Shown here: piece by piece, positions 1 through 30,689 of the stretch | Position numbering within the stretch: the stretch's first letter is position 1 | Layout of the letters: every line of letters begins with the position of its first letter | Origin: Heptranchias perlo | Taxonomy: Eukaryota | Length of the DNA stretch: 34,056 nt | Assembly (NCBI RefSeq): GCF_035084215.1 | Contig: NC_090363.1 | Coordinates: 2,480,001-2,514,056 of the forward strand | Reading direction: 5' to 3' | The notes under the pieces: generated by a model | The model's database searches: none | Told to the model about the DNA's origin: nothing | The model's input: the letters and a program-made list of their open reading frames with translations, nothing else | Made by a program: the position numbers and the translations under genes

Positions 1-157
1 GGCAGAAAGCTTTTTTCTCTTTTTCCCAGCACTGCAGGATACACTGACGGCAGACATCATGGCCACAATCTAACATAACCGGATCGATAAAGATATCGAG
101 ACAAATGGGGCAATTCAGTTCATCTCCCAAACTTAGGCTGGAGGACCCGGAAGCCAT
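1..157 (-). CDS. TRIM-A, first coding exon (partial, runs off the window): RING-finger N-terminus of a TRIM E3 ligase
   Basis: Manual translation from the ATG at 157 gives [52 protein letters not shown], a C3HC4 RING closely similar to TRIM-C exon 1. It is not in the ORF track because it is short and truncated. Confidence 0.9.
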   Translation of the reverse strand, partial: MASGSSSLSLGDELNCPICLDIFIDPVMLDCGHDVCRQCILQCWEKEKKAFC

Positions 158-3700: not shown

Positions 3701-4409
3701 GTTCTCCCTAAGCCGTGCCCTAATCAGCGGAAACCCGGAGAAAGCCTTAACGAACCTTCGCCCCTCTTCGGAAGGATTTCCCCTAATTTCGACCAAAGCT
3801 ACGGCGCAGATCGACAGGAGCTCCAGAAAAATTCCTACCCCCAATCCCCCTTCTCAAGCAGTACTTTCAGTTCATTTCCCTTTTAAAGATATTAATTGAC
3901 TCCGATTTGATCGCGTTCTCTGACAGTCGGCATTTTCCGCTCTCCCGTTGGGGAGGGGCGGGGGGAAACCACATGAATTGTTTGGACGAAGATGCAAAAA
4001 AAAAAGAGCCATCTAAAGTCTGCACGCCTTCATTCTGGATTACTTTCGCCAATTAGCTCCGCTGGGATCTGCGGAAAGAGAGCGGAAACCGCGGGGAAAA
4101 CAGCGGACTCCTCCGCCGAAGTTACGCCGGACGGTGGGCCGCCCCCTAGCGGAGATTCGACCTCTTTGTTTTCAGCGCAGCGCAAAACTGGAGACTTACC
4201 ATAAATTGCAGGGGCTGCATTGCTCCGCCCCGGACAGGAGAGGGTTCTTGGCATTCCATATATGGGAAGGATAGACTTTATTTAAAGTCCTGCATCTGTT
4301 TCCCTTTCGCTCATGCGCGAGAGAGAAATAATCGTAAATGACCCCTAAAAGTTTCGATCCCATAGCGGAGAACTGAACGGCGCAGTCACACGGCGACTGA
4401 GGGTGAACC

Positions 4410-4832
4410 ATGGCCTCTGAGCCCCAGAGCTGGAGTTTGGGAGCTGAAGCAAACTGCACCATTTGCCGCGAAATCATTGCGGAGCCGGTGAAACTGGAGT
4501 GCGGGCACACTTTCTGCCGCGAGTGTATCGCACGGTATTGGGAAACGGACGAGACGGCGTTCTGTCCCAAATGCGGCGTGACCATCGAGCAGAGAGGTCT
4601 GCACGCCGATTCGGCATTGGAGAAGCTAATTAGCAAAGGTGGGGTCCGGAGCGGGGAGAAGGGGGACCAGTCGGGAGCCAAACCTCACTGCGTGGAACAC
4701 CAGGAAGAAGTGAAGCTGTTCTGTGAAACCGAGCGGAAAATGATTTGTGTGAATTGCCTCGATAGGAGGGATGAGAAGAGCCACACGGCTCATAATTTCA
4801 TGTTGTTGAACGAAGCCGTTGAGATATACAAG
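4410..4832 (+). CDS. TRIM-B exon 1: RING (C3HC4) plus B-box 2. Gene model join(4410..4832,4935..5030,5197..5430,8814..8836,8942..9051, last exon uncertain)
   Basis: RING CTIC-x11-CGHTFCREC-x12-CPKC and B-box CVEH...FCETE...ICVNC...HTAH. Good Kozak context accATGG; phase-0 donor AAG|gtaaag. Confidence 0.93.
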
Positions 4833-4934
4833 GTAAAGGGGGACCCAGGCTGCGCGGCCGAGGTACAATGTTATTTGGCTTTTCACTCCCACCTTTAACC
4901 AAACACTTTCCCCCTGCTGTGAATTCCATTCCAG

Positions 4935-5030
4935 GAGAAAATGAACACCATCATATATTCCCTGAAGCAGAAGAAAACATCTTTTCAAGATTTTGAGCTT
5001 AAGCAGCAAGAGAGCATTTCCGAAATTAAG
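4935..5030 (+). CDS. TRIM-B exon 2 (96 nt, coiled coil)
   Basis: ttccag|GAG...AAG|gtaaag; EKMNTIIYSLKQKKTSFQDFELKQQESISEIK; same length as TRIM-C exon 2. Confidence 0.9.
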
Positions 5031-5196
5031 GTAAAGTCTCAATGCGCCGATGTGGTTAAAGTTACGCAGCGCATGTCCGGCCCTATCGCTCTGCACCTTC
5101 AGCACTTTAGCTTGGTGTTTATTAAATTGGCGATCGAGGTGTTTGCGGCCTGGAATAGTTACGGTTCCTTCTCCAACTAACTCTTTGTGTTCACAG

Positions 5197-5430
5197 GAAC
5201 AGTCGAATAAATTGCAGACTCTTATCGACTCCGAATTTTCCAAACTGCGCAACATTTTGGACGACAAGGAGCGGAATTTGGTCAAAGAATTAAATGAGGA
5301 AAAGGATGATATCTTAAGCAGAATGGAGACCAACCTACGAGAAATCCGAGACAATTCACAAGAAGCGCAGCAAAGGTTATCGTACATAGAGATGCAATTG
5401 AATGAGCAGGACGCATTCGCCTTGCTCATG
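5197..5430 (+). CDS. TRIM-B exon 3 (234 nt, coiled coil)
   Basis: tcacag|GAACAG...CTCATG|gtaacg; EQSNKLQTLIDSEF...QDAFALLM; same length as TRIM-C exon 3. Confidence 0.9.
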
Positions 5431-5806
5431 GTAACGTGGTCACTTTGATCACTTAAACTCCTCTCTCGTTACATTTAAGTTTTTAAAAAATTACATCCAT
5501 TGCTGCTGGTCCTCGGCATTTCTGAATCCCAGATTGTGTGAGAGGAGCTCATTCTATGATAACTGCTGCAAAGGATGCTGCTACTTTCATTTCCGGTCCC
5601 ATAAATCACTTACCATTATCAAGTTAAAATGCACATTGCCTTCCGTGGAATGCAGTGCGACATGAAACAATCATATTTATCAAACAAGGTTCTGAACCAC
5701 TTTGGTTGGTTGAAGTATACATTAACATAATATTTCCTGCTTTCACATTCCCTTCTCATCTCTTCATAGAGTAAAATGCCTATCTTCTTATTCTGATCTT
5801 TTTTAC

Positions 5807-6226
5807 TATTCGTTCATGGGATGTGGGCGTCGCTGGCGAGGCCGGCATTTATTGCCCATCCCTAATTGCCCCTTGAGAAGGTGGTGGTGAGCCGCCTTCT
5901 TGAACCGCTGCAGTCTGTGTGGTGACGGTTCTCCCACAGTGCTGTTAGGTAGGGAGTTCCAGGATTTTGACCCAGCGACGATGAAGGAACGACGATATAT
6001 TTCCAAGTCGGGATGGTGTGTGACTTGGAGGGGAACGTGCAGGTGGTGTTGTTCCCATGTGCCTGCTGCTCTTGTCCTAGGTGGTAGAGGTCGCGGGTTT
6101 GGGAGGTGCTGTCGAAGAAGCCTTGGCGAGTTGCTGCAGTGCATCCTGTGGATGGTACATACTGCAGCCACTGTGCGCCGGTGGTGAAGGGGGTGAATGT
6201 TTAGGGTGGTGGATGGGGTGTCAATC
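5807..6226 (-). mobile_element. Non-LTR retrotransposon (CR1/L2-group) 3' end, in TRIM-B intron 3
   Basis: ORF2 C-terminal-type peptide LHHRRTVAAVCTIHRMH...SWNSLP...RFKKAAHHHL followed by a 3' UTR gggatgggcaataaatgcc...cccacatcccatgaacgaata. Confidence 0.8.
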
Positions 6227-6384
6227 AATCTGACTGTGGAGTTAATGGTGTAACTTTACACTACCCATGGGATGAACATCTTTAATCTCCTAGATCCTTT
6301 GGCCTACATGGCCACATCACCTCCTCCCTGTCTACTCTACTACCTCTGAACACTTCTATTTGGATTATTTTTGTTTTATTTATT

Positions 6385-6592
6385 TACACAAAGGGTAGTG
6401 GATATCTGGAACTCTCTCCCTCCAAAGATTGGATGCTCGGTCAATTCAACGTTTTCAAGACTGAGATGGATAGAATTTTGTATCAAGGGATAGGGAACAA
6501 AGGCGGGTAAATGCAGCTGAGGTACAGATCAATCACAATCTAATTGAATGGCAGAACTGGTTCAAAGGGCTGAATGGCCTCATCCTGTTCCT
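6385..6592 (+). mobile_element. Degenerate CR1/HER1-like 3' end
   Basis: acacaaagggtagtggatatctggaactctctccc...gggctgaatggcctcatcctgttcct. Confidence 0.65.
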
Positions 6593-6695
6593 AGGCACCA
6601 TCCTCTGGAGTCAGCCATGTTTATAATATTCCTACAACACTGTAGTTCCCGAGTGCCAGGTAGCCTCATGTTAAGGCATTGCTTATTCCCAATAC

Positions 6696-6806
6696 CAGGT
6701 TATAGTCCAACAGCTTTATTGGCAATAAAACCATTGGACTATAACCTGGTGTTGTAAGATTCCTTACATTTGTCCACCCCAGTCCATCACCGGCATCTCC
6801 ACATCA
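6696..6806 (+). mobile_element. Short Penelope-derived fold-back insertion with a 13-bp TSD
   Basis: Inverted CCAGGTTATAGTCCAA / TTGGACTATAACCTGG, 3' end CCCCAGTCCATCACCGGCATCTCCACATCA, flanked by TTATTCCCAATAC at 6683-6695 and 6807-6819. The arm matches the Penelope remnant at 26170-26190. Confidence 0.8.
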
Positions 6807-7409
6807 TTATTCCCAATACATTTAACATTCACTTACTGCGGTTGTTACCATCTTTTGGCCCCCAGTTTACCCTTGTGAGTGTTGCCTGGTTCTTGTACAT
6901 CACTCTGCTGTCTAGACTCCATTCTTTAATTCAATGGGATCACATTTACTCCCGTCCTTCTCCCTCCTGTCCAATGTAAATGCTTCTTGTAGCCACTTCA
7001 ACGTTGCTGACAAGTTCCATTGTTTTTATTTTGTCATCTCTCCCTTTTTTGTTACAAGAACAGCGCCATTTACTTTTCTAGTGCCATTATTATTCTCCCA
7101 GCAGATTGACAGTCAGTTATTCGCATTCCCCGGTTTTCTTTGCAAAAATCTTTTTTCACCAACAACAGGAAGTATGGCAGAAAATTGCTTTGATTTTCTA
7201 GGCTATCCTTGCCTGGGCAGTTTCAGAGCCCTTTTATGATTTCTTACAGTGCCATTTAGCCCTTCCTGCTTTGGTCATTGATCTTCAGTGTGCACAGACC
7301 TACCTCGAGGCAACCAATTCATCCCCCTTACCACACTCATGTCTACCCACCTTCCTACAGCCAGAATCTCTCAGCACCTTACAAACTGCATCTTTGTCCT
7401 AACCCTGTA

Positions 7410-8229
7410 CATGGCAGACGAAATTTAATGTAGAGAAGTGCGAAGTGACACATTTTTGGCAGAAAGAACGAGGAGAGGCAATATAGACTAAATGGTACAA
7501 TTCTAAAGGGGGTGCAGGAACAGAGAGATCTGCGAGTATATGTGCACAAATCTTTAAAGGTGGGCAGGGCAGGTCGATAAAGCAGTTTAAAAAGCATACA
7601 GGATCCTGGGCTTTATAAATAGAGGCATAGAGTACAAAGGCAAGGAAGTTATGTTGAACCTTTATAAAACACTGGTTTGCCCACAGCCGGAGTATTGTGT
7701 CCAATTCTGGGCACCGCACTTTAGAAAAGATGTGAAAACCTTAGAGAGGGTGCAGAGGAGATTTACTAGAATGGTTCCAGTTACATGGAGAGATTGGAGA
7801 AGCTGGGGTTGTTCTCCTTAGAGCAGAGAAGGTTGAGAGGAGATTTGATAGAGGTGTTCAAAATCATGAAGGATTTAGATAAAGTAAATAAAGAGAAACT
7901 GTTCCCATTGGCGGAATGGTCATGAACCAGAGGACACAGATTTAAGGTGATTGGCAAAAGAACCAAAGGCGACATAAGGAAAACTTTTTTACACAGCGAG
8001 TAGTTATGATCTGGAATGTGCTGCCTGAAAGGGTGGTGGGAGCAGATTAAATCGTGGCTTTCAAAAGGGAATTGGATAAATATTTGAAGGGAAAAAAATT
8101 GCAGGGCTACGGGGAAAGAGTGGGGGAGTGGGACCAACTGGATAGCTCTTACAAAGAGCCAGCTCGGGCTCAATGGGCCGAATGGCCTCCTTCTGTGCTG
8201 TAACCATTCTATGGTTCTATAATTCTATG
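7410..8229 (+). mobile_element. CR1/HER1-like LINE, 3' ~820 bp (frameshifted ORF2 C-terminus plus tail)
   Basis: Encodes [24 protein letters not shown] and [19 protein letters not shown]; tail gggccgaatggcctccttctgtgctgtaaccattctatggttctat. Confidence 0.92.
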
Positions 8230-8813
8230 TTATCTGGCTTCTGAACTATTTCTTCCTCCATGTCTTGGTCTCCTGCATTATGAGTTGGTGCTTGATCTAA
8301 TTTAATGGTGCAACAGGCTCGAAGGGCTGAATGGCCTACTCCTGTTCCAATGTTCCTATATCCGCACATTTTTGTGGCTTTCTTAATATCTTTACAAGCG
8401 CTCTTCCTGTCGTTAGTGCATCATTTATTATATTATGTGCTTGCTTTCCTAATTCCTTTTCTTGCCGACCCTGCACCTATTTGCAAAAATCCCTATGACA
8501 GGTTCCTAGTGACTCGCTCTCAACATTGAGATGCAGCCTGTCCACTTCACTAAACTCTGATGACTCAGTGGGTTCAACACTATCCATTCGCCTTTGCTAA
8601 TTAGCTTTACAATCGATTTCTTCCATTAGTTCACCTCCCCTCCTCTCAAAGGTCCAAATTTTTCCCTTTAAACTTTAGGCAGATGAGATCAGCGGGTTGC
8701 TCAACACTTCACTATTGAGTCCTTTCATTCTGCAAAGTTGCCCCTCGTTTAATCTGTTTGTACACTGCCATCGGTATGCTGTGCGTTAATATTTGGGTTT
8801 TTGTCTGTTTCAG

Positions 8814-8836
8814 GATAGTACATCCGAGGAGCAGAG
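8814..8836 (+). CDS. TRIM-B exon 4 (23-nt micro-exon)
   Basis: ttgtctgtttcag|GATAGTACATCCGAGGAGCAGAG|gtacga; same length and phase as the TRIM-C and TRIM-D 23-nt exons. Confidence 0.8.
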
Positions 8837-8941
8837 GTACGACACGTTCTCCAAAAATAACTCTGAGCAACATTATAAAGTAGCAAATTGAAGCCTTTGT
8901 TTTATTTTCTGCTGTTAAATATTTCCTATTTGCATTATTAG

Positions 8942-9051
8942 TGAAAACGACTATCAACCAAAAATAGCGGAAGGCAGCCTGTCTCTGGGAGCATTTAAAG
9001 GACCCACCCAGTATAGAGTGTGGAGAAATGTGATAGACGTTATCAACCCTG
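8942..9051 (+). CDS. TRIM-B exon 5 (110 nt; homologue of the 116-nt linker exon with a shifted acceptor)
   Basis: (S)ENDYQPKIAEGSLSLGAFKGPTQYRVWRNVIDVINP(G), matching the paralogue motif LSLGVFKGPLQYTVWKEMIDSISP; donor CCTG|gtacgg. Confidence 0.8.
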
Positions 9052-9160
9052 GTACGGAGGTCTTTTCCTGTTTTCTTACTTAACCCATAAAGTCCTCAAT
9101 AACTATGCACATCTTGAGAATATGAGACAAGAGTACAGGATGTAAATATTTCATACCGAC

Positions 9161-9415
9161 TTCAAATAAGAAAATAAATTAAATAGTAGCATGGAATCCG
9201 GTTCATTCGTGGTTTATAATACAACTATCAAACAATAATCAAAACTATTTTAGAAGAAATCGATCAATCTAGTCCATTCATTGGTAAGAAACACTAATCT
9301 AAATCATTAAGTCTGTCAGTGTTTCTTTTGTAGCTTAAAAATGGAAAAATAATGCAGAAGGACATTCACAACTGATCTGGTCAAATCACTTTCGGGTGAT
9401 AATACAGGAAGTGCG
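9161..9415 (+). repeat. Diverged local direct duplication, copy 1 (copy 2 at ~10303-10560)
   Basis: Collinear similarity by eye; the core 9210-9244 matches 10352-10386 at 34/35 bases. Confidence 0.75.
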
Positions 9416-10088
9416 TGAAGAAACTTTAAACATGAAATGTTCGCATTTCTACTTTGCAAAAAAGAGTAAGAAACGTACTTGAAGGGTGCAGAACAGGAGG
9501 AAAGTTGAAAATATTTGGAAACAAAACGAAGTAAATCAAAAAGTAATGGTTAAGTGATGTCAGGAATGTTATTTTTTAAATGTTTAGATTATAGAAGGGA
9601 GGAGAGGCGGTCAGAGAGATAAGAAGTTATGGAGTGCGAGAGTCTCTCCATGAATGGGATGTAAACAGTTTAGTTGATGCCAATGAAATGTTACAATGAT
9701 GCATTGTCACAAAAGGGAAGGACTATGGTGTCCAGTAGACGTTGCTTTTTAATCAAAGCAATGTTCTTATTCTCAGAGCTCAAAAAACTCTGTGTTATCA
9801 CAATGGCAGTAATGAATATCAGGGCGGAAGTGCTCACTCTAGCGGGCTCAACTATTAATATCTCAGACAACTCTCGCTTATGCTAAATCTACCTTTCGGT
9901 TTAAACAAGGGAAGGGTGCATGAAATGGGAAATTGTCCGTTCAAATGATATGCATTGAACGATCCGATACTTTATACGGTAATTATACTAACAGAAACAG
10001 GTGGGCTTGTGTTGTACAATCACAGAGTAAGTGTGCAAAATGCAACATGCGTTGGTTCATCTAACAACATAAATCTTTTCTTTTCCAG

Positions 10089-10123
10089 GCTGTGCAGCGT
10101 TTAACAAAGGGACTACTTCTTGA
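10089..10123 (+). CDS. Candidate short terminal coding exon of TRIM-B (GCAAFNKGTTS*), giving a ~306-aa RBCC-only protein
   Basis: Strong acceptor ctaac...aaatcttttcttttccag|, stop at 10121-10123 when joined to exon 5, AATAAA at 10360-10365. Alternative ends exist. Confidence 0.35.
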
Positions 10124-10302
10124 TTTGCTTTGACTCCTTAATTACTTCTCTCAGCCTCGGCCATGTCCTGCGCTAAAGATCTTATCCAGGTCCCCACTCG
10201 GGACCAATCTGTTGTTCTGCACAGGATGAAACACCAGATTATTTTAGGTCCCATCTTCAAGTCACACATCACGAAATGCCAAACTAAACCTTTCGTGCTG
10301 GT

Positions 10303-10560
10303 TTCAAATAAGGATATAGATGAAATCTTAGCATGTAACCTGTTTAATTCTTGGTTTATAATAAAACTATCAAACAATAATCAAAAACTTTAAAAGGTAA
10401 TGTTCAATCTCGCCAGTTCATTCGTAAGGAATTCTATTCTGAATTAAGCCTGTCTCAATAGTTTCTTTCGCGGCTTGAAACAAGAAAAAAACGTCGATCA
10501 GGTCATTCAGATAAATTATTTTGGTCCAATCACTCTGGACTGACACCGTAGAACGTGCAT
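10303..10560 (+). repeat. Diverged local direct duplication, copy 2
   Basis: See 9161-9415. Confidence 0.75.
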
Positions 10561-12141
10561 TCAGGCAACCCTGAGCCAAGGTGGTCCAGAAATCACTTGT
10601 TAATTGCTTGAGAACTGGAAAAGAATGAAACGTCACTATGAGCGCAATTTCAAGCGTGAATTTATAGTAAGTTTTCAGAATTGCTTTGGTTTTTCTCGTA
10701 CTAATAGTGGTAACCCCCCTCCCCTCAAAAAATACCCTTACTCAGGTGGCTGTTACATCGAATTATATAGAAATTACAAAATAGAAACAGGCCGTTTGGT
10801 CCATCCAGTCCTGGACAGTCCTTGGTCCGTATCTTCTACAAGGTCATTTCAACTTTCGGCGATAATATAAAATGGGCGATTTCGGACCCGTTATAAAAAC
10901 CGCCAGATTGAGAGGAACAAATGACCCCCCATAAAGTGAATTTCTGTAGGCTGTTCGACAACAGTCAGCGCAGCCGAGCCCAATCCAATCCTCAAGTAAC
11001 ATTTCCACAAAAAAAAAATCTAGGAGTTATCACCAGGTCGCAATCAGGAGTCAGAATCCTGTCTATTTTCCCCTTGATATTTCACGGTACTGAGGCGAAC
11101 AGCGGGCCTCCACTCTGCAGAAACCAGGGATGAAAGCTGAAACCTTTCTGGTCGCTATACTCGCTCGCTAATGCATCTACCACTCAGCCATCACGTGGAC
11201 TATTTTTTTGTTGAGTTAAAATTGCAGAGGAAACCAAGCAGTGACATTAACAGCGTCTCACAGTTTTGAACACACGTGTGGAACATTACTGGACTCAAAA
11301 GAAATAAAAATGTCAAGTTATCCAATAAAACCAAAAAGGTGACGGTGCTCCTTTTGTACTTCAAATAGACTTAACGAAAGACATGTGTGCAGAAGTTTCC
11401 CCAGAGTGTTTATTTGCTTATAAATACATATTCAAAAGTATATAAAGTACTGAAAGCAGTACTACATTTCATCTGCACCTTCAGAGATGTTAAGAATCAA
11501 TTTATACTATCTATTATGCCACACTTATAATTATAATTAAATATATTTATATCCACACATTTACCTCTTGCAGATTTGTCCAGCATTATGTTCCTAGCGA
11601 TATCTCCAATATGTGTGTAGAAAAGTTATGAGTCGCGCATGTCCCATTTCTAGCGTCCCATGGGGGGTGATTTTAACCCCCAAGAACGGGTGGGTTGGGG
11701 GTGGGTGGGAGTTGAAAATAGCTGTATTTTTTGGGGTCGCGACCGCAAAATTTCCGGACTTTGCATTCCCAGTGGGAAGCCTGGACTTTTACCCGCCCAA
11801 GTTAAACCTGGAAATAAAGCCGGGTTGCGACCCAAAAAAAAAACAACTGTTTTCAGCTCCCACCCCTTCAAAAAAAATATTGTTCCGTCACTCTTCAATA
11901 AATATACCGAAAAAATGTCAATCTGACCTCTAAATGACCGGAGGATCATCCAAGAACAATCAGCCTCTGATTGGCTAAGAAACACACAGCAATTACATCC
12001 GTTGGCTTTAAAGGGACTCACCAACTTTATACAGAGTTGATTTTCGGAAGTCATGATGTGGAGATGCCGGTGATGGACTGGGGTTGACAATTGTAAACAA
12101 TTTTGCAACACCAAGTTATAGTCCAGCAATTTTATTTTAAA

Positions 12142-12180
12142 TTCACAAGCTTTCGGAGGCTTCCCCCTTCCTCAGGTGAA
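12142..12180 (-). ncRNA. Minimal type I hammerhead ribozyme motif (Penelope-type)
   Basis: Minus strand reads UUCAC-CUGAGGA-A-GGGG GAAGC CUCC-GAAA-GC-UU-GUGAA. Confidence 0.75.
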
Positions 12181-12235
12181 CGATGTGAAAAAAAAAATAT
12201 ATTTAATTATTATTATTTTTTTTTTTTTCACATCG

Positions 12236-12274
12236 TTCACCTGAGGAAGGGGGAAGCCTCCGAAAGCTTGTGAA
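12236..12274 (+). ncRNA. Minimal type I hammerhead ribozyme motif (Penelope-type)
   Basis: Stem I UUCAC/GUGAA, core CUGAGGA and GAAA, stem II GGGG/CUCC, palindromic AAGCUU stem III; predicted cleavage between 12269 and 12270. Confidence 0.75.
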
Positions 12275-14841
12275 TTTAAAATAAAATTGCTGGACTATAA
12301 CTTGGTGTTGTAAAATTGTTTACGATTTTCGGAAGGGGAGAGACCCTCCCACCTGCCGTGATCAGCGACTTAGGGACGCACAAGTCTTATAAATACAGAT
12401 TTCTTTCCTTACTGCACTTATCTTATGGACTTTGACCACAAACCTGAGACCATTCCAAATTCACGTCGGCCCTGTTTGGATGCAAATAAATTAAGAACAA
12501 AAAAAAAAGACCCTTGAAGAGAGATTTTGTTCCAAGGTCTGCATTCTTTAAAGGCTGGGGGGGGTCTTTCTGCAAAAAGGATGGGAATATATCTCACGGC
12601 TCAGCAGCGGGCTGGGGTCTTGTTTTCTCGGCTCTGCTCCTCCTGGCCCCACCATATTAAAAAAATTAAAACCAACTTTGACCGTGTTCTGAGCGGCCTC
12701 CAGCGGACGCTTGCAGGGCAGCTGGTGAGGCCTCGCTCCACACATTCGTACCTCAAAATTGCAGAACAGGGTCCAATGTACGTCACGGAACCCGGGTTTG
12801 CAGATTCCGTGGCTCCCCCCCGGAATCAGGCAGGAGTTCCCACTGCCCAACTCGGCACCCAACCCAAGGTGGTCATGGCTGAAACGCCAGCGTAAACTTT
12901 AATTCCATTCCCAGGCGACCGTCACTCCATTTCCGCCAGGAGAGGGGGGGTCTTAATATCGGGCCCGGTGAGTTCAGGATGTAGAGTCTGGAGCTGGATG
13001 CAAATAAAATTACAGCACAGAAATAGGCCATTCGGCCCAACAGGTCCAGGCCGAATAAAAAAAGCAACACGTTTAGTTTATCTTTCTGGGATTCAATTAA
13101 GCACCGAATCGCCTTTTGTTTAAGCGCTGGTTCTATTGTTTCTCTAGTTATTCTCTAGTTTAATATATATTATAGCCCTTGGTGTTGAACTAATCCATCT
13201 CAAACACGGCGATGGAGGGTCACCGTCCACCTGTGGAGCAACATTAGAGGCAGGAAGGTCACCAGGTCCCTGCCCCGCACACCTCATTCTACCCGGTAAC
13301 TTCCTCTCTACAATTGACCATCTATTTATTCCTTCTCTCCCCTCCTCCTTTCCCCCAGCCCCACAGAGGCCCTCGCTGATATTTCAGTTCCCAGTTCCGA
13401 TACAGGGTGTATATCCAAAATGTCAATCCGTCTTCTCTCTCCACATGTGATGACCGACCTGTGTATTTCCAGCATCTGTCCATCAGATTTCCAGCTGTTT
13501 ATTGCGCGGGTCGTGGAAATGGTTATTAATTTCATGTTTACTGGCCTCTTGTTAACCAACAGGGAAACCTTTTAGTGAAGCAAATAAAGTGAGGAAATTG
13601 ACTTACCAAGAAGCTGCTTTTCACAGTTGGAACTGTCCTCAGAATTTATCCCAGATCACTTCTTACTCTGTTTTATTTTTATTTCCCTCTGTGTAGATGT
13701 CCCAAGTATTTTTATGTTTGGTCAGGTACACATTTTCCTGGAAATTGAGGATATCACCGGAGGTGTAAAGAGCCAGGGTGGAATTTTACGAGGCCGTGTG
13801 TAACTGGCAGAGCCTCACATGGTCCGGGCAGTTTATCGGAAAATTGCTCTTTCATTGCCCGCGATGTGAGTGACGTGAGTGGGAGGGAAATCGAGGGCAG
13901 TCCGCCCGCAATGCTGTGATCAGCCGGGCGCAGCATGTGAGGCCCCACTGGTGAGAGGGACCTCCGCAAATTTCACCTCAAGTTGATATCACTCCCGGGA
14001 AACCAGACTGAACGGGGGCGATATTGGTCTTTGGTCAATTTTACACTACCGCCCAAATCCAATTTCACACCCACAATTTCTTCATTGATCTTTTTTTGTT
14101 AATGAATTTGCATCCAACCAGGGTTCACGTGATTTTAGAGCAGTCTCACCGCCTTTATTACATTCTATTAATTTAACAATTCAAATAAAGCAAATGAAAA
14201 GAAAAAACAGTGTGGTCAGACAAAAACTCTTAAGCAGGAAGTCCAAGCACTGGTTACTAGTCTATCAGTAACTTTGTTACTAATCACTGCAATATCACAG
14301 TGAACATTTAGAAGTGCAAGCCCAACTAATGGGTGTGATTTTGTCAAATTGCAGAACTAACTAGCACTGGACGCTTGTTTCTGTGTTCGATCAAGTGATC
14401 GAAGGCACGTTCTTTCTAAAGGAGTGTTGCGATATACTTTAAAAAATAGAAATTTCAGGGGTATTTGAACAGCCTGAACCCTCCCTGCTAACGCCCCTGG
14501 ACATTACAATATGCAGGATGTTAAAGTATTACTACATACAGGACTTAGCAATGCACGAGATGTTTCTTCACTGGTGCTGTTCAGGAAGCTGCAATAAGCT
14601 AAACAGGTGGCTCTCGGGAAGGAATTTGGACATATTTTTGAGTATTTGGCATTCAAAATTTTATTTTCCAAGCTCTTACAAAGGGCAGAATAATGACAAC
14701 ATATAATCATGACTACTAACTTTATTAATATGTTATAGATGGCATAACAAAATGGGAATATAACCATTTCTGTAAGTTACTGAATTACATAAACCCTGGG
14801 CAAAGAGCATGCATTACTTCCTTGCCGTCTAATGCCTTCTA

Positions 14842-16928: not shown

Positions 16929-17479
16929 TCAGTGACCTTTAACCCCACAGATTGTCAGCGGTGCTGAGTTTTTCCCGCCATCATTCAGTCCCGGATTGAA
17001 GATGGGAAAGAGTCTCTCGGTGAAAGTGTGGGTGAAAGTGTGGAGATGGGACATGTTGCCCACATTGTAAAATGACACCTGTCCACCCTCATAGTCCAGG
17101 TACACCCCGATCATCCAGGGATCCACACTCGGGGTGAGGGGGGTCGGTGAGGGGGAAGTGAGGGCAAAATAGCCACATCCAGGTAACAGCCACACAGCCC
17201 AGTATCCGGCCTCAGGTCCCAGGTTGATTCCCCCTTTCCTGCTGACAGACTCTCGGGCCACTCCCATAACCCACTCAGTCTTGTCCCCCACCTCCACCTC
17301 CCAGTAGTGTCTCCCTGATGTGAATCCCTCCGATCCCAGGACACAGGGCCAGGGATCAAACCTCTCCGGGGTGTCCGGGAGCCGCTGCCGTTTGTCTCCG
17401 AGTCTCACACTGGTCTGGTCCTCAGACAGGATAAGCCGGGGATGGGCTGTGTTCAGATCTAGAGTCAAACAGGCTGGAG
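16929..17479 (-). CDS. TRIM-C exon 6: PRY/SPRY (B30.2) domain, terminal coding exon
   Basis: cccccag|CTCCAGCC; [17 protein letters not shown]...[19 protein letters not shown]...[16 protein letters not shown]...[11 protein letters not shown]; stop at 16929-16931. Confidence 0.95.
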
Positions 17480-20400
17480 CTGGGGGGAAGTTAAAATAAC
17501 ACAGTCAGTGATTCAGTTTCTTGCTGCGATTTATCACAGTAGGTACAGCACTGAAGGAGGCCATTTGGCCCATCGTGCCTCTGCTGGCTCTTTGAAAGAG
17601 CTATCCAATTAGTCCCACTCCCCGGCTCTTTACCAGAGCCCTGTCATTTTTTTCCCTTCTAGTGTTTACCCAATTCTCTTTTGAAAGTTATTATTGAATC
17701 TGCTCCCACCGCCCTTTCAGGCAGCGCGTTCCAGATCAGAACAACTCGCTGCGTAAAAAAATGTTTCCTCATCTCACCTCTGGTTCTTTAGCCGATCACC
17801 TTAAATCTGTGTCCTCTGGTTCCCGACCCTTCTGCCACTGGAAACAGTTTCTCCTTATTTACTCTATCAAAACCCTTCATGATTTTGAACACCTCGATCA
17901 AATCTCCTCTTAACCTTCTCTGTTCTAAGGAGAACAAATCCAGCTTCTCCAGTCTCTCCACATAACTGAAGTCTCTCATCCCTGGTACCATTCTGGTAAA
18001 TCTCCTCTGCACCCTCTCCAAGGCCTTCACATCCTTCCTAAAGTGCGGTGCCCAGAATTGGACACAATACTCCAACTGAGGCCTAACCAGTGTTTTATAA
18101 AGGTTCACCATAACTTCCTTGCTTTTGTACTCTCTGCCTCTATTAATAAAGCCCAGGATCCCATATGCTTTTTAACAGCCTTCTCAACTTGTCCTGCCAC
18201 CTTCAAAGATTTGCGTATGTGAACACCCCCAGGTCTCTCTGTTCCTGCACCCCCTTTAAAATTGTACCATTTAGTTTATTTTGCCTCTCCTCATTCTTCC
18301 TACCAAAATGTATCACTTCACACTTCTCTGCTTTAAATTTCATCCGCCATGTGTCTGCCCATTTCACCAGTCTCTATCCTCCTGAAATCTGTTACTATCC
18401 TCAACATTGTTTACTACATTTGGGAGTTTGAAATTATACCCCTTATATCCAAGTCCAGGTCATTAATATATATTAAAAAGAGCAGTGGTCCTAATACTGA
18501 CCCCTGGGGAACACCACTGTATATTTCCCTCCAGTCTGAAAAACAACCATTCACCTCTACTCTCTGCTTTCTGCTTTATTCATACAATTTCCTGTTTAAA
18601 GTGCCAACCCAGGGGATTCCCGGGACCTCCGGTGTTTTCTGTTATTGGAAACTGCTCCCACCCGGGGGTTTACGCTTCTGGGACCGCTCTGACCTCTGGT
18701 CACCACGGCGATCCCGATCCGCTGCCAGGGACCCTGTGGCCGCCCCCCCCCAGTCCCCTGCGGTTCTCAGCGCCTGCAGAGTGACCCAGGGGTCTTTAGA
18801 GGTACATGTGGAATAGACTGTGCGGGCTGCAGCGTTCCTTGGAAACGCAAGAGGTGGAAAGGTACAGACCTGTGGAGAAGGGAGAGGAGAAAAAGATTTA
18901 AAAGGAGGGGAACTGCTTCAGAGGGGAAGAGAGAACCAAGGGGAGAAGGGAAATTAATTGGAATAAAAGTGAGCAGAAGAAAGGAGAGATTCGGCAGAGG
19001 AAACGAGGGAAGGAGCTACCGCAGAGGGAAATAGATAAATGGGGGAGATAAAGAATTCATGGAGAGAAAACTAGAAGAGTAGAAGCAAAGGAATAGAGAA
19101 GAGGATAAAAAAGCTGCAGCTCACTCGATCAGTCCAACAGTCTGACCAGAAATGCAAGAAAAACTGGAAGGGGGCAGCCCCAAGAATCAGAGACCCACCA
19201 CCCCTCCGCCAACAGAAAATAACACCCTGAGTACAGCCGGTCAATACAATTATATCCATGAATATCAACAGACTCCAACACATAATCAGGCGAAACAAAA
19301 CTGATCTACATAAAAGGACAGGTGGGAGTAGCATTTCTACAGGAGACCCTCCTCACCACCCTCAGAACACACCAAGTTTATGAGTGAGTGGGTGGGACAA
19401 ATGTCTCCGACTCAGCCAGGAGCTGGAGGTAGTCACACTAATCAACAGGAACCTCCCCATTACTCTGGAGATACACATTCCTGGAGAAGGAGGCCGCTCC
19501 ATCCTAATGAAATTCGAATAACAGGAGAACCCAAAGTGATGCTTCAGTTCTGTGTCCCGAGTGAGGAGTCCCCCCGCGTTCCCCACATCAGCATTCCTCA
19601 CACTCGCCCCACGTATGGACAACACAGTAACCATGAGTGGAGACCCGAACTGTGATCTTCACTCCCAACGGGTCAAGCTCCCAGCGGACACGGGGCACGA
19701 GGACTCGCAGCCGGGCTAATCCGAGGTCAGAGTAGTGGCCTGGGCCTAGTGGATGTATGGTGAGCCCACATCCCACAGGGTGGGAATTCACCTCCCACAC
19801 AAGACACACCCTGGGATAAACTACTCCTTCCTGAAGCAACCCCGCCTACCCTGTTGTGATAGGAGGTTAGCAGGACTTGGACCAAACGTGCTCCATTCAG
19901 ACATCGGAGCCTCAAACCTGCCTTTCGACATGACTCCGAGTTCCTGTCTACCTCTAGGTGAAGCTCCCCCTCACATATACCCTAGGGTAGAAAGTGCATG
20001 AATTATTGCACACAGTCACACTGAGCCCTTATCTCAGATGGTGAGCTTGAAGTTGGGAAGGTCTCGCCAACTTTTACCAGGCCACAATCCCAGACTTTTC
20101 TCCCCTCCGACTGAGCCTCCTTCAGTATGGACTGGAGATAAAGAACCAGAATTCATCCCCATCACGTTAATACATTTAAAAAAAAGGAAATTCATCCCCA
20201 CCAGCTCCTTCATACTGACTATAAAATATTGGCCAAGATCCTGACCTCCAAACTAGACACAGACGTCAGTGATCATTTTAATCTGGGGTCTGGGAGCCGG
20301 TTTACGCTCCTCACATCTGGATTTATAGATCAGGAAAAGGAATATAAGAGTTTTACCGGGGTTAATGGCGTCTATCATTTCTCTCCACGCTGTGTACTGT

Positions 20401-23400
20401 AAAAGGCCATCGAACTTTCCGATTGGCAGCTTGTTATCTGCTACTGACAGTAAATTATTGTCCTCACTAATCCTGTAAAAATATTAAACAGTCGATGTTA
20501 TGAATTGACCATAAACACTTTGCTGAGTTAGTCTAACAGAATCGTTACAGCACAGATGGAGGCCATTTGGCCCATCGAGTTATTGCCCCAAACTGTGCAG
20601 AGTTTCAGTAAAGACCATGTCCTACCTCATCTTCTGACGCGTTTCCTCCTGAAATAAATAAAACACAAATCTGAGTTGACAGAGACTGACCGTCTATATC
20701 CGGACAGCAGAAATTACCCCAAATTGTTACAAGCTGTTGATCATTCTGAATTCTCACTGCTGCCAACACACGGATAGAAAGAGGATATATCGAAAAATCT
20801 GATTTGTGAGTCAGGTTCTGGAAATCAACATCAGTCCCACTCACAGAGTGATTCTCACACCCACCGTACAACACACACACACTCACACTCACCGTACCAC
20901 ACACACACACTCACACCCACCGTACCACACACACACACACTCACACCCACCGTACCACACACACACACACTCACACTCACCGTACCACACACACACACTC
21001 ACACTCACCGTACCACACACACACACTCACACCCACCGTACCACACACACACACACTCACACCCACCGTACCACACACACACACTCACACCCACCGTACC
21101 ACACACACACACACTCACACTCACCGTACCACACACACACACTCACACTCACCGTACCACACACACACACTCACACTCACCGTACCACACACACACACTC
21201 ACACCCACCGTACCACACACACACACACTCACACACTCACACCCACCGTACCACACACACACACTCACACCCACCGTACCACACACACACTCACACCCAC
21301 CGTACCACACACACACACTCACACTCACCGTACCACACACACACACTCACACCCACCGTACCACACACACACACTCACACCCACCGTACCACACACACAC
21401 NNNNNNNNNNNNNNNNNNNNNNNNNNNNNNNNNNNNNNNNNNNNNNNNNNNNNNNNNNNNNNNNNNNNNNNNNNNNNNNNNNNNNNNNNNNNNNNNNNNN
21501 NNNNNNNNNNNNNNNNNNNNNNNNNNNNNCACTCACACCCACCGTACCACACACACACACTCACACTCACCGTACCACACACACACTCACACTCACCGTA
21601 CCACACACACACACTCACACTCACCGTACCACACACACACACTCACACCCACCGTACCACACACACACACTCACACTCACCGTACCACACACACACACTC
21701 ACACCCACCGGACCACACACACACACTCACACTCACCGTACCACACACACACACTCACACCCACCGTACCACACACACACACTCACACCCACCGTACCAC
21801 ACACACACACTCACACTCACCGTACCACACACACACTTACACTCACCGTACCACACACACACACTCACACTCACCGTACCACACACACACACACTCACCG
21901 TACCACACACACACACTCACACTCACCATACCACACACACACACTCACACTCACCGTACCACACACACACACTCACACCCACCATACCACACACACACAC
22001 ACACACCCACCGTACCACACACACACACTCACACTCACCGTACCACACACACACACTCACACCCACCATACCACACACACACACTCACACTCACCGTACC
22101 ACACACACACACTCACACCCACCATACCACACACACACACTCACACTCACCGTACCACACACACACACTCACACCCACCATACCACACACACACACTCAC
22201 ACTCACCGTACCACACACACACACTCACACCCACCATACCACACACACACACTCACACCCACCGTACCACACACACACACTCACACCCACCGTACCACAC
22301 ACACACACACACACTCACCGTACCACACACACACACACACACTCACACCTACCGTACCACACACACACACTCACACCCACCGTACCACACTCACACACTC
22401 ACACCCACCGTACCACACACACACACACACACTCACACCCACCGTACCACACACACACACTCACACCCACCATACCACACACACACACTCACACTCACCG
22501 TACCACACACACACACTCACACTCACCGTACCACACACACACTCACACTCACTGTACCACACACACAGACTCACACCCACCGTACCACACACACACACTC
22601 ACACTCACCGTACCACACACACACACTCACACTCACCGTACCACACACACACACTCACACTCACCGTACCACACACACACATTCACACTCACCGTACCAC
22701 ACACACACACACTCACACTCACTGTACCACACACACACACTCACACCCACTGTACCACACACACACACTCACACCCACCGTACCACACACACACACTCAC
22801 ACTCACCGTACCACACACACACACTCACACTCACCGTACCACACACACACACTCACACTCACCGTACCACACACACACACTCACACTCACCGTACCACAC
22901 ACACACACACTCACACTCACTGTACCACACACACACACTCACACCCACTGTACCACACACACACACTCACACCCACCGTACCACACACACACACTCACAC
23001 CCACCGTACCACACACACACACTCACACTCACCGTACCACACACACACACACACTCACCGTACCACACACACACACTCACACTCACCATACCACACACAC
23101 ACACTCACACTCACCGTACCACACACACACACTCACACCCACCATACCACACACACACACTCACACCCACCGTACCACACACACACNNNNNNNNNNNNNN
23201 NNNNNNNNNNNNNNNNNNNNNNNNNNNNNNNNNNNNNNNNNNNNNNNNNNNNNNNNNNNNNNNNNNNNNNNNNNNNNNNNNNNNNNNNNNNNNNNNNNNN
23301 NNNNNNNNNNNNNNNNNNNCACTCACACCCACCGTACCAAACACACACACTCACACTCACCGTACCACACACACACACACCCACCGTACCACACACACAC

Positions 23401-25931: not shown

Positions 25932-26193
25932 GATTTGTTTCTGAACTTCCTGATTCAAACTGCTGGCATCAGGTGGATCAGTATGTGTGAGTCCTCGCCC
26001 TTCCTCCCTTTTTCCCCTCTACATTTTCCCAGCCTTAGTAAAAAGGTAAAATGCCCGTTTGTCTCTCAGTCTGATGATAGGTTCACCCAGAAGCGTCATA
26101 TCCAACACTGAGTGGATTTTCCCCTTCACAATCCTGCATTCGGTAACACCTGTAAGGAGTGGCACAACACCAGGTTATAGTCCAACAGCTTTA

Positions 26194-26565
26194 GAATCAT
26201 AGAAGTTACAACATGGAAACAGGCCCTTCGGCCCAGTTTATACCACTAAGCTAGTCCCAATTGCCTGCACTTGGCCCATATCCCTCCATACCCATCTTAC
26301 CCATGTAACTGTCCAAATGCTTTTTAAAAGACAAAATCGTACCCGCCTCTACTACTGCCTCTGGCAGCTCGTTCCAGACACTCACCACCCTTTGAGTGAA
26401 AAAATTGCCCCTCTGGACCCTTTTGTATCTCTCCCCTCTCACCCTAAATCTATGTCCCCTCGTTATAGACTCCCCTACCTTTGGGAAAAGATTTTGACTA
26501 TCTACCTTATCTATACCCCTCATTATTTTATAGACTTCTATAAAATCACCCCTTAACCTCCTCCT
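26194..26565 (-). mobile_element. CR1 LINE 3' end nested in the Penelope remnant
   Basis: MRGIDKVD...TRGHRFRV...FFTQRVVSVWNELP...FKKHLD; tail (plus strand) acaggcccttcggccc. Confidence 0.88.
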
Positions 26566-26580
26566 CTATTTTATTTGAAA

Positions 26581-26617
26581 TCACAAGCTTTCGGAGCTTT
26601 CCTCCTTCGTCAGGTGA
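26581..26617 (-). ncRNA. Minimal type I hammerhead ribozyme motif in the Penelope 3' region
   Basis: Minus strand reads UCAC-CUGACGA-A-GGAG GAAAG CUCC-GAAA-GC-UU-GUGA. Confidence 0.78.
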
Positions 26618-27249
26618 GTGCAGGTTTCCATAAAGGCACAGCATATATAGTCAGAGAACAATGCCTGGTGATTACAGATAATCTTTCCAACTGCCCGTTA
26701 TCACACCTCCCGGCAGAGATATAATCAAAGCAATCAAAGGAGTGGATGGTGTTCAGACAGAGAAACATTACATCCCAGACTACTGAATACACAAACGGTC
26801 AGAACACAAAGACAGATAGAGAGAGAGAGACACCCGAAAGGCAAAGAGAGAGAGAATGCCCTGTTGTATTAAAAACAGATAACATTTGTTCGCTGGTGGG
26901 GTAACGTGTAGCGTGACATGAACCCAAGATCCCGGTTGAGGCCGTTCTCATGGGTGCGGAACTTGGCTATCAATTTCTGCTCGACGATTTTGTGTTGTCG
27001 TGTGTCTCGAAGGCCGCCTTGGAGAACGCTTACCTGAAGATCGGTGGCTGAATGTCCTTGACTGCTGAAGTGTTCCCCGACAGGGAGAGAACCCTCCTGT
27101 CTGGCGATTGTTGCGCGGTGTCCGTTCATCCGTTGTTGCAGTGTCTGAATGGTCTCGCCAATGTACCATGCTCTGGGGCATGCCCAAGCGATAAAGACTA
27201 AAATCAACTTCACTGTATTTTCTAACATACTTTCATATTTCAGAGACCA

Positions 27250-28530
27250 CTCTAAAGTAAAAATACTCAATCAGAGGAGGGCCAATTTCAATGGGATGAG
27301 AACAGATCCGGCCCGGGTAAATTGGAATCAAAGATTGTCAGGCAAAACTGTAATTGAACAATGGGCGGCCTTTAAAGAGGAGATGGTTCTGGTACAGTCC
27401 GGGCACATTCCAACGAGGGGGAAAAGTAGGGCAACTAAAGACCGAGCTCCCTGGATGACAAAAGAGATAGTGAGTAATATAAAACGGGGAAAAAATGGTG
27501 TCAGGTTGATAACACAAGTGAGAACCAGGCAGAATATAGAAAGTTCAGAGGGGAAGTGAAAAAGGAAATAAGAGGGGCAAAGAGAGAGTATGAGAGTAGA
27601 CTGGGGGACAACATAAAAGGGAATCCAAAAGTCTTCTACAGGCATGTAAACAGTAAGCAGGTAGTAAGAGGAGGGGTGGGGCCAATTAGAGACTAAAAGA
27701 GATCTATTCATGGAGGCAGAGGGAATGGCCGAGGTACTAAATGAGTACTTTGCATCTGTCTTTACCAAAGAAGGAGATGCTGCCAGAGTCTCAGTAAAAG
27801 AAGATGTAGCTGAGATACTGGATGGGCTAAAAAATGATAAAGAGGAGGTATTAGAAAGGCTGGCTGTACTTAAAGTAGATAAGTCACCCGGTCCAGATGG
27901 GATGCATCCTAAGTTGCTGAGGGAAGTAAGGGTGGAAATTGCGGAGGTACTGGCCATAGTCTTCCAAACATCCATAGATATGGGGTGGTGCCAGAGGACT
28001 GGAGAATTGCAGATATAAGGATAAACCCAGGAACTACAGACCAGTCAGTTTAACCTCGGTGGTGGGGAAACTTTTGGAAATGATAATCTGGGACAGAATT
28101 AAAAGTCACTTTGACAAGTGTGGATTGATTAGGGAAAGCCAGCACGGATTTGTTAAAGGTAAATTGTGTTTAACCAACTTGATAGAGTTTTTTGATGAGG
28201 TAACAGAGAGGGTAGATGAGGGGAATGCAGTTGATGTGGTGTATATGGACTTTCAAAAAGTATTTGACAAAGTGCCGCATGGTAGGGTTATCATCAAGAT
28301 TGCGGCCCATGGAATAAAGGGGGCAGAAGCAACCTGGATACAGAATTGGCTAAGGGACAGGAAACAGAGAGTAGTGGTGAATGGTTGTTTTTCGGACTGG
28401 AGGGAGGTGTACAGTGGTGATCCCCAGGGGTCGGTGCTGGGACCACTGCTTTTCTTGATATAAATTAATGACTTGGACTTGGGTGTACAGGGCACAAGTT
28501 CAAAATTTGGAGATGACGCAAAACTTGGAA
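27250..28530 (+). mobile_element. CR1 LINE ORF2 internal fragment (frameshifted RT region)
   Basis: [73 protein letters not shown]. Confidence 0.93.
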
Positions 28531-30059: not shown

Positions 30060-30180
30060 CTAGGAGAAGGTTTTTTTTTTAAAAAAAAAGCAATATCAGA
30101 TTTGTTTTCTGGCTGTAATTTATTAAAACAATGAGTGACTTTCCTTTTTAAAATGTGCGCTCTCGGCTGCATAATTTAAT

Positions 30181-30271
30181 TGTAAACAATTTTACAACAC
30201 CAAGGACTATAACTTGGTGTTGTAAAATTGTTTACAATTGTCAACCCCAGTCCATCACCGGCATCTCCACA
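30181..30271 (+). mobile_element. Short Penelope-derived fold-back insertion with a 12-bp TSD
   Basis: TGTAAACAATTTTACAACACCAAG / CTTGGTGTTGTAAAATTGTTTACA hairpin, shared 3' end CCCCAGTCCATCACCGGCATCTCCACA, TSD GCATAATTTAAT at 30169-30180 and 30272-30283. Confidence 0.82.
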
Positions 30272-30689
30272 GCATAATTTAATGACTGCTGCTTCAGATC
30301 GCTCTGCAAAAAAAGATTAAATTATGAGGACAGGTTGTTTAAACCTGGTTTTATTCCCTTGAGATGGAGGTTTCAATGGCGATTTAACCTTTTTGCAACT
30401 GAGATGAAAATTTGACCCTAGCTCTTAAGTAAGCTCTTTTCAATTGTAAATGTCATGTACATATGTTTGATATACAAACCTGAATTATATATAATTATAA
30501 ACCTGAATACATCGCATCCATCCACGGATGTGTAGATCCATCTCCCCATCAACAATTCTGTTTGCCTCTGAAATTATGTGCAAATGTTAGGAAGATGCTT
30601 AGCTTCCATATCCTATGACATTCCGTTGTCCACTTTTTTTTTTAAAACGAAGACATTACCCTTCATAGGATAACAACTCCATTTACACA

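What the first reader, a model, noticed from the sequence alone, without database searches (positions are those of the whole stretch)
12039..12335. Palindromic element with a hammerhead ribozyme on each strand
Seen: a 273-bp insertion with a 12-bp TSD whose ~105-bp arms are near-perfect reverse complements around an AT-rich spacer, implying a young insertion. Each strand reads UUCAC CUGAGGA A GGGG-GAAGC-CUCC GAAA GC UU GUGAA: full hammerhead core, stems I and II, and a tiny palindromic stem III (AAGCUU). Known: Penelope-like elements encode minimal type I hammerheads that are thought to cleave as dimers. Inference: a transcript from either direction carries one ribozyme preceded by its own exact antisense, so it is either a self-masked ribozyme or a ~100-bp dsRNA hairpin. 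It lies between the 3' ends of two convergent immune-type genes, where it could affect read-through RNA, ADAR editing or dsRNA sensing.
Basis: partly seen in the sequence, partly recalled or inferred. Interest (0 to 1): 0.8.

Follow-up and report, generated by a model that had tools for sequence, protein, structure and literature searches.

The report
Mirror-image stub of Penelope jumping gene
This palindrome is a short back-to-back insertion of a very common Penelope-type jumping gene, repeated many times in this genome; its two ribozyme motifs are likely silent passengers, but where such stubs end likely marks the start of the jumping gene's RNA and hints at how it copies itself.

Summary
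In detail: a 273-bp insert, an exact 12-bp TSD, arms matching at 104 of 105 bases, and a minimal type I hammerhead (HHR) on each strand. It is not a special element. Each arm is the pseudo-LTR of an abundant Penelope-like element (PLE) with intact RT + GIY-YIG copies; one arm carries the PLE 'tail' up to the ORF's ATG. The tail has 28,782 exact hits, and 29 of 100 unselected hits have an HHR core on both arms. Inverted truncated copies, the tail and opposite-strand HHR pairs are published, and this scan noted the same on two other genomes. The insert lies beyond the apparent 3' ends of both flanking TRIM genes, and read-through RNA is predicted to bury the HHR in a hairpin. One addition: arm 5' ends pile up about 30 nt behind a pLTR TATA box, not at the HHR cut (48 of 112 arms; 37 of 57 held out), and the two arms of one insertion share subfamily and 5' end. 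That suggests twin priming on one RNA's 5' leader. Ordinary locus, modest mechanistic lead.

The parts
12039..12050 (.). Left target-site duplication (12 bp)
   Evidence: Exact match to 12324-12335; 41 of 62 TSD-bounded family inserts have 12-13 bp
12051..12092 (-). PLE 'tail', present on this arm only; ends at the ORF start codon (ATG at 12054-12052)
   Evidence: In intact copies L081, L082, L084 the same sequence runs straight into the ORF's ATG
12051..12190 (-). Tail-bearing pLTR arm, from 44 nt upstream of the predicted cut (TATA+30 of its subfamily) to 96 nt downstream
   Evidence: 96-97% identical over 137-141 nt to pLTRs flanking intact ORFs; subfamily spacing from 11 long copies
12142..12180 (-). 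Minimal type I hammerhead motif, predicted cut 12147/12146
   Evidence: Sequence; activity untested
12191..12225 (.). 35-nt all-A/T centre, not found in the source element: likely untemplated additions where the two arms were joined
   Evidence: Long copies of the subfamily read ...GGACTTCATTTCACATCG here; 27 of 48 family palindromes have a filler
12226..12323 (+). Tail-less pLTR arm, from cut-44 (TATA+30) to cut+54
   Evidence: 46 of 48 tail-less arms end at cut+51..+59
12236..12274 (+). Minimal type I hammerhead motif, predicted cut 12269/12270
   Evidence: Sequence and fold; activity untested
12324..12335 (.). Right target-site duplication (12 bp)
26146..27270 (-). Older 5'-truncated copy of the coding PLE (GIY-YIG end, 3' UTR, HHR at about 26568-26617), split by a second repeat with LINE-like coding remnants at about 26195-26567
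   Evidence: (GIY-YIG E=0.012, below cut-off)
30176..30280 (+). Shorter head-to-head insertion of the same family, no HHR, tail on one arm
6671..6811 (+). Older head-to-head insertion of a sister subfamily, no HHR, tail on one arm

Best explanation
The palindrome is a head-to-head insertion of two short copies of the pseudo-LTR of an abundant Penelope-like retrotransposon, likely made in one event and likely without a function of its own. SHOWN: each arm is that pLTR; one arm has the tail, the other stops about 40 nt earlier; the target is duplicated over 12 bp; the shape recurs throughout the genome. INFERRED mechanism: the element's mRNA starts about 30 nt behind a TATA box in the pLTR, so its 5' leader is HHR + tail, followed by the ORF. 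The RT/endonuclease cuts both target strands about 12 nt apart. Each 3' end primes reverse transcription on the same uncut RNA, one at the tail end (cut+~95, at the ATG) and one at a second site (cut+~56). Both copies run to the RNA's 5' end, gain untemplated A/T bases and are joined. The HHRs ride along. The insert has lost the TATA box, and any read-through RNA would fold into a ~105-bp hairpin that hides the HHR, so it is predicted to be silent as a ribozyme.
For: [quoted passage not shown] Abundance: 28,782 exact 41-nt hits, control 0; 903 exact copies of this HHR variant, with 17 minus/plus pairs under 200 bp apart among the first 100 listed (counted from the listing). Shape: 56 of 100 unselected tail hits have an inverted arm within 330 bp, 29 of 100 an HHR core on both arms. 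Two start sites: tail ends at cut+89..100 in 100 of 100 (selected on the tail), tail-less arms at +51..59 in 46 of 48, and 4 single tail-less arms have their own 11-13-bp TSD (L192, L201, L208, L219). One template: arms identical over 69 nt in 19 of 26 palindromes versus 12.8% between insertions; stem II type shared in 21 of 26 versus 7.9 expected; 5' ends correlated, Spearman 0.66, n=48. 5' ends: 48 of 112 arms at TATA+25..36, mode +30, only 9 of 112 within -5..+6 of the cut; ending rate 0.039 per nt there versus 0.0035 or less around the cut and 0.0015 or less upstream of TATA; held-out set 37 of 57, mode +30. In vitro precedent: a lizard PLE cuts and extends both strands, starts at two internal sites that bound the tail, needs the ORF's 5' part, and uses uncut RNA (PMC11167929, parts 1-2 of 4 read).
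Against: No RNA 5' end was seen: the TATA/initiator call is by eye and the runs are contigs only. The shift of 5' ends with TATA spacing is clear in the first sample (median cut-46, n=22, versus cut-39, n=23; p=0.001; partly circular) but nearly absent in the held-out one (-43 versus -42), where the second subfamily reads TTTTAAAATG instead of TATAAATG. Correlated ends and shared variants fit a cDNA fold-back, or later arm-to-arm conversion, equally well. 5 of 26 palindromes differ in stem II between arms. D. virilis Penelope has a TATA-less internal promoter (PMC2377424, passages), so loss of the TATA may not silence the stub. The first sample comes from 9.2 Mb of one contig and holds some tandem duplicates.
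Confidence: 0.6

Rival explanations
1. Same origin (PLE by-product), but the second arm is made by fold-back: one cDNA reaches the RNA's end, adds A/T bases, snaps back and copies itself; self-priming has been proposed for PLE inversions.
For: Shared subfamily and correlated 5' ends. A/T-rich centre that could self-anneal. Self-priming proposed in PMC3846280 (passages); an earlier AI note uses 'fold-back'.
Against: The tail-less arm reaches further 5' than the tailed arm in 18 of 48 palindromes (13 the reverse, 17 equal), and in L084 the tail-less arm is about 3 kb while the inverted tailed arm is short; a copy cannot outrun its template unless the centre was later deleted. The stop at cut+56 is also the 3' end of single arms with their own TSD, so it behaves as a start site.
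Confidence: 0.27
2. The short unit is a non-autonomous element (retrozyme- or SINE-like) that is transcribed and moved as a palindrome, using its HHRs to cut itself out.
For: Very high copy number, narrow size (33 of 48 palindromes are 195-265 bp). Animal retrozymes derive from pLTRs (bioRxiv 10.64898/2026.07.22.740005, part 1 of 5 and passages).
Against: Centres differ from copy to copy; ends do not sit at the HHR cut; no head-to-tail repeat of the unit was found upstream in 100 of 100 loci; arm sequence and subfamilies are those of coding copies.
Confidence: 0.05
3. The insertion has been put to use between two convergent TRIM genes, as a self-cleaving terminator or as a dsRNA hairpin for ADAR or innate sensing.
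For: Flanking genes are convergent TRIMs; read-through RNA would form a ~105-bp duplex.
Against: Young, one of many alike; outside both apparent 3' ends (contigs end near AATAAA at 10360 and 14660); HHR fold 76 kcal/mol less stable than the hairpin; no real stem III, and single min-HHRs showed no cleavage in vitro (PMC4209133, parts 1-2 of 4).
Confidence: 0.05
4. Assembly fold-back artefact.
For: No listed contig spans the whole insert; the DNA contig 12300-13035 holds only 24 letters of the arm, under the 31 needed to count as a bridge.
Against: Exact TSD, one-sided tail, one arm difference, non-palindromic centre, and the same anatomy with distinct TSDs at 48 other loci.
Confidence: 0.03

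Closest known systems
Insertion units of endonuclease-positive Penelope-like elements (Craig et al. 2021, PMC8557442; Arkhipova et al. 2013, PMC3846280; passages read)
   Same: pLTR, inverted 5'-truncated copy right at the 5' end, 30-40-nt tail on one end only, TSD, HHR in the pLTR; a TATA/initiator in the pLTR was noted for a rotifer PLE.
   Different: Here no coding sequence is left, only two ~100-140-nt arms; the passages read do not tie arm ends to a start site.
Minimal type I HHRs of metazoan PLEs (Cervera and de la Pena 2014, PMC4209133, parts 1-2 of 4 read)
   Same: Extra nucleotide between 9 and 10.1, G10.1-C11.1, palindromic 15.2-16.2, 5-bp stem I; 'dual min-HHRs ... (~100-700 bp) but in opposite strands' is stated there for Schistosoma.
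   Different: This species' motif is untested; pairs here are often closer (cores under 100 bp apart).
Anolis Poseidon element PAc in vitro (Frangieh et al. 2024, PMC11167929, parts 1-2 of 4 and passages)
   Same: Two internal RT start sites bounding the tail, both strands cut and extended, HHR cleavage not needed for insertion.
   Different: PAc starts 111-118 nt into its ORF and its HHR overlaps the start codon; here the tail ends at the ATG and the HHR lies about 95 nt upstream. Different clade (linker motif here). The parts read do not explain inverted copies.
Non-LTR retrozymes (Li, Clavereau, Pollet, bioRxiv 10.64898/2026.07.22.740005; part 1 of 5 and passages)
   Same: pLTR-derived, non-coding, type I HHR.
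   Different: Retrozymes are head-to-tail tandem arrays; this is head-to-head with a TSD.
LINE-1 twin priming (recalled, not from a call)
   Same: Both target strands prime on one RNA, giving an inversion with a TSD.
   Different: In L1 the inverted part is upstream, non-overlapping sequence at variable sites; here both arms cover the same stretch from two fixed sites.

Membership tests
EN+ Penelope-like element insertion | Sequence is the pLTR of an element whose single ORF has RT then a GIY-YIG endonuclease | tested here: met
   96-97% identity to pLTRs around 895-918-codon frames; RVT_1 above cut-off in 1 of 2 proteins; GIY-YIG E=0.012, below cut-off, on the window's copy; CCHH residues seen by eye
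EN+ Penelope-like element insertion | Inverted 5'-truncated copy adjacent at the 5' end | tested here: met
   56 of 100 family hits
EN+ Penelope-like element insertion | 30-40-nt tail on one end only | tested here: met
   42 nt here (12051-12092); about 38 nt in the family; 17 of 18 held-out palindromes have one tail
EN+ Penelope-like element insertion | Target-site duplication | tested here: met
   12 bp exact; 12-13 bp in 41 of 62
Neptune clade | CX2-5CxxC linker upstream of GIY-YIG (shared with Nematis, absent in Penelope/Poseidon) | tested here: met
   C-x4-C-x2-C in the L081, L083-L086 translations; definition from PMC8557442
Neptune clade | RT phylogeny groups with Neptune rather than Nematis | not tested
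   No named reference proteins in hand; PDB gave no hit, the Atlas gave no result
PLE minimal type I hammerhead | Core CUGANGA/GAAA/UH, extra base after A9, G10.1-C11.1, palindromic 15.2-16.2 | tested here: met
   core kept across stem II variants in family copies
PLE minimal type I hammerhead | Self-cleavage as dimer or with protein help | not testable with these tools
   Needs a bench assay; cofolding two units gave swapped stems I/II, not a stem III dimer
Rfam hammerhead families | Covariance-model hit | tested here: not met
   No hammerhead hit at E<=1 in the window or E<=10 on 12225-12290
Non-LTR retrozyme | Head-to-tail tandem units, each with an HHR | tested here: not met
   Head-to-head here; no direct upstream copy of the 150-nt arm within 400 bp in 100 of 100 loci
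MITE / DNA transposon | Terminal inverted repeats at both ends with a constant interior | tested here: not met
   Ends are asymmetric, centres vary, sequence belongs to an RT-coding element
microRNA precursor | Rfam hit at gathering score | tested here: not met
   All miRNA-model hits over the insert are below gathering, generic long-hairpin matches

The most novel reading that the evidence does not exclude
Most short copies of this PLE are not random 5'-truncations of the 3' end but complete reverse transcripts of the mRNA's 5' leader (start site to ATG), and the inverted pLTR plus one-sided tail typical of PLEs comes from two RTs priming from both target strands at two fixed sites on one uncut RNA. 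The stubs would then be a genome-wide record of the element's start site and a direct in vivo read-out of the unresolved PLE insertion step.
Probability: 0.45. Interest if true: 0.6.

Novelty: new member of a known kind. Interest (0 to 1): 0.27.

Why it matters
The locus itself matters little. The family-level pattern bears on an open question that PMC8557442 names, how PLEs form their tandem/inverted structures and tail, and gives sharp predictions (start site at TATA+30, two priming sites about 38 nt apart, 12-13-nt staggered cut, HHR uncut) in a genome with many open-frame copies. A rough extrapolation (29 of 100 times 28,782) gives several thousand ~100-bp near-perfect hairpins genome-wide, a possible bulk source of dsRNA where they fall in transcripts; that is a family question, not one about this copy.

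Tried and rejected
Rfam: no hammerhead hit, only sub-threshold miRNA hairpin matches. A direct genome-wide count of double-HHR palindromes was not obtained; the figure is an extrapolation from 100 loci plus the listing. Sequencing runs: no RNA holder on record; four runs guessed to be RNA come from the same sample, three were laid, all contigs, so no start, end, strand or editing can be read, and depth over the insert is that of the whole family; lack of cover on the unique flanks is no evidence. No joint skipping the insert (empty allele) is among the rows shown; 138 joints were not shown. Idea that HHR cleavage sets the template's 5' end: rejected (9 of 112 ends near the cut, no rise in ending rate). 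Idea of a fixed 150-nt unit starting with poly-T, from the first search: rejected as selection by the query; unselected hits start otherwise. First held-out pass mis-scored 29 arms for lack of a subfamily reference; redone, where two L209 arms were then mis-scored and are removed from the count (39 of 59 to 37 of 57). L033, L060, L087 were dropped for wrong TSD bounds; repeats of one TSD were dropped. Search of the left flank found another repeat at 11663-11865 but no empty-site paralogue. PDB and Atlas gave nothing. Paper searches for the TSS/twin-priming reading and for shark or crocodilian palindromic PLEs showed no such report in their listings; the library lacks most subscription papers and Repbase, and supplements of PMC11167929 (Fig. 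S2) and PMC4209133 were not opened and may bear on this.
Full report
1. Observation. The sequence is as described. A 12-bp word is repeated exactly at 12039-12050 and 12324-12335 around 273 bp. The arms 12093-12197 and 12219-12323 differ at one base, and the insert folds at -194.1 kcal/mol against -58 for shuffles. Each strand carries stem I (5 bp), CUGAGGA, an extra A, stem II (5 bp with one G-U), GAAA-GC-UU and the 3' strand of stem I; the predicted cut on the plus strand is 12269/12270. Rfam's models do not detect it. The insert is not symmetric: the left arm has 42 more bases (12051-12092).

2. What the arms are. The window holds a broken coding copy with a related HHR and a GIY-YIG-like frame (26146-27270). 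That frame had 36,132 candidates in the 3.25-Gb genome, 150 scored. I fetched six copies with long frames. They encode up to about 900 aa with an RT domain (RVT_1 E=4e-10 for L081, below cut-off for L084) and a C-terminal endonuclease region. The finding's arm matches their pLTR at 96-97%, and its last bases run into the ORF's ATG. So the extra 42 nt are the PLE tail. A C-x4-C-x2-C motif precedes the endonuclease, which by PMC8557442 (passages) marks Neptune or Nematis, not Poseidon; no tree was built. That the host is a shark-like fish is my recall from its repeats, not a test.

3. How common the shape is. A 41-nt tail pattern has 28,782 exact hits, control 0. I took the first 100 listed (9.2 Mb of contig C1, chosen on the tail only; some are tandem duplicates). 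56 of 100 have an inverted arm within 330 bp; with longer references 60 have an inverted piece, 29 have an HHR core on both arms and 20 are long copies. The finding's exact HHR variant has 903 hits; among the first 100 listed I count 17 minus/plus pairs under 200 bp apart and 9 more 0.4-5 kb apart, all head-to-head. Two shorter insertions of the same shape lie in this window (6671-6811, 30176-30280). The literature describes this: an inverted 5'-truncated copy next to the 5' end and a 30-40-bp tail on one end (PMC8557442, passages; PMC3846280, passages), and dual min-HHRs on opposite strands 100-700 bp apart (PMC4209133). Two earlier AI notes of this scan report the same on other genomes; I saw them after forming my reading.

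4. Ends of the arms. 3' ends fall at two sites: cut+89..100 for tailed arms and cut+51..59 for 46 of 48 tail-less arms. Four single tail-less arms have their own TSD (that script's ungapped test failed on one subfamily, so this is a list of cases, not a rate). TSDs are 12-13 bp in 41 of 62 deduplicated inserts. This matches the two RT start sites and two-strand cutting shown in vitro for a lizard PLE (PMC11167929). 5' ends do not cluster at the HHR cut: 9 of 112 lie within -5..+6. They cluster 25-36 nt behind a TATAAAT found 67-77 nt upstream of the cut in long copies: 48 of 112, mode +30. For tailed arms, 26 of 55 at risk end in that window (0.039 per nt), against 3 of 71 and 8 of 79 in the windows around and after the cut, and 0 of 23 and 3 of 23 upstream of the TATA. 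I noted the prediction and tested it on 60 new loci chosen on the HHR variant: 37 of 57 short arms end at +25..36, mode +30, after removing two mis-scored arms. Both arms of the finding end at exactly +30 of their subfamily. Against this: the shift with TATA spacing seen in the first sample (median -46 versus -39, p=0.001) is almost absent in the second (-43 versus -42), and no RNA end was observed.

5. One template. In 19 of 26 palindromes scored, the arms are identical over 69 nt, against 12.8% of between-insertion pairs; stem II type is shared in 21 of 26, 7.9 expected, 0 of 5000 shuffles. 5' ends correlate (Spearman 0.66, n=48). The tail-less arm reaches further 5' in 18, the tailed arm in 13, and 17 are within 3 nt. 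Shared template fits twin priming or fold-back; the frequent longer tail-less arm and the independent use of the +56 site favour twin priming. Later centre deletions or arm conversion could blur this.

6. Function at this locus. The neighbours are TRIM genes: RING/B-box/coiled coil on plus from 4407, and RING/B-box at 25422-26018 to PRY-SPRY at 16929-17504 on minus. In runs guessed to be RNA (one sample, contigs only), a GT..AG joint 9050-10088 appears in 2 of 3 runs, that contig ends at 10355-10375 near AATAAA at 10360 with thin pieces to 11209, and minus-side contigs end at 14648-14699 near a minus-strand AATAAA at 14660. The insert thus sits in a ~4.3-kb gap, about 1.7 and 2.3 kb from these ends. 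In a 470-nt read-through RNA of either strand the HHR-shaped fold costs 76 kcal/mol and stem II is essentially unformed. The motif has no stable stem III; single min-HHRs did not cleave in vitro (PMC4209133) and the lizard HHR needed protein. The insert lacks the TATA box. I infer a silent passenger. Editing and read-through could not be tested.

7. Verdict. Real, young, and ordinary: a stub of a known kind of element, in an arrangement already in print and already seen by this scan. PLE origin is near certain; the specific leader-copy, twin-priming mechanism is about 0.6 as best explanation and 0.45 in its full general form. Searches (papers; scan notes) showed no report of arm ends marking the start site, within the limits of those libraries. 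Interest 0.27.

Noticed in passing
window 32644-32831 and 1614-1766: Two other palindromic repeats (arms 89 and 62 nt, 82% and 76% complementary) unrelated to the PLE arm, with similar-looking ends; older MITE-like elements.
   Followed up: no
window 11663-11865: Part of a ~245-bp dispersed repeat with inverted ends, 87-90% identical to many copies (1,892 candidates), 185 bp left of the finding.
   Followed up: partly
window 12445-12502 and 14091-14148: 58-nt inverted pair, 78% complementary, 1.6 kb apart; may bound an older repeat right of the finding.
   Followed up: no
window 4407-10375 (+): TRIM gene that seems to stop right after the pre-PRY motif: the last splice (9050-10088) leads to a stop within 10-17 codons, so it would lack the B30.2 domain that its convergent neighbour has.
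   Followed up: partly
window 20772-24700: About 4-kb CA-rich minisatellite inside the minus-strand TRIM gene, with N stretches.
   Followed up: no
L081-L086: Many PLE copies keep 895-918-codon open frames; L082 is a head-to-head pair with kb-long arms, so the family is probably active or recently so.
   Followed up: partly
L060, L120, L151, L153, L119, L127: Centres or 5' junctions hold reiterated short repeats or 150-200 nt of unrelated sequence, as expected from slippage or template jumps by the RT.
   Followed up: no
family HHRs, L001-L156: Stem II varies by subfamily (loop-closing G-C versus A-U pair, G-U wobble, N7 G or C) while the core stays fixed, hinting at selection on the ribozyme in source copies although insertions carry it uncut.
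   Followed up: partly
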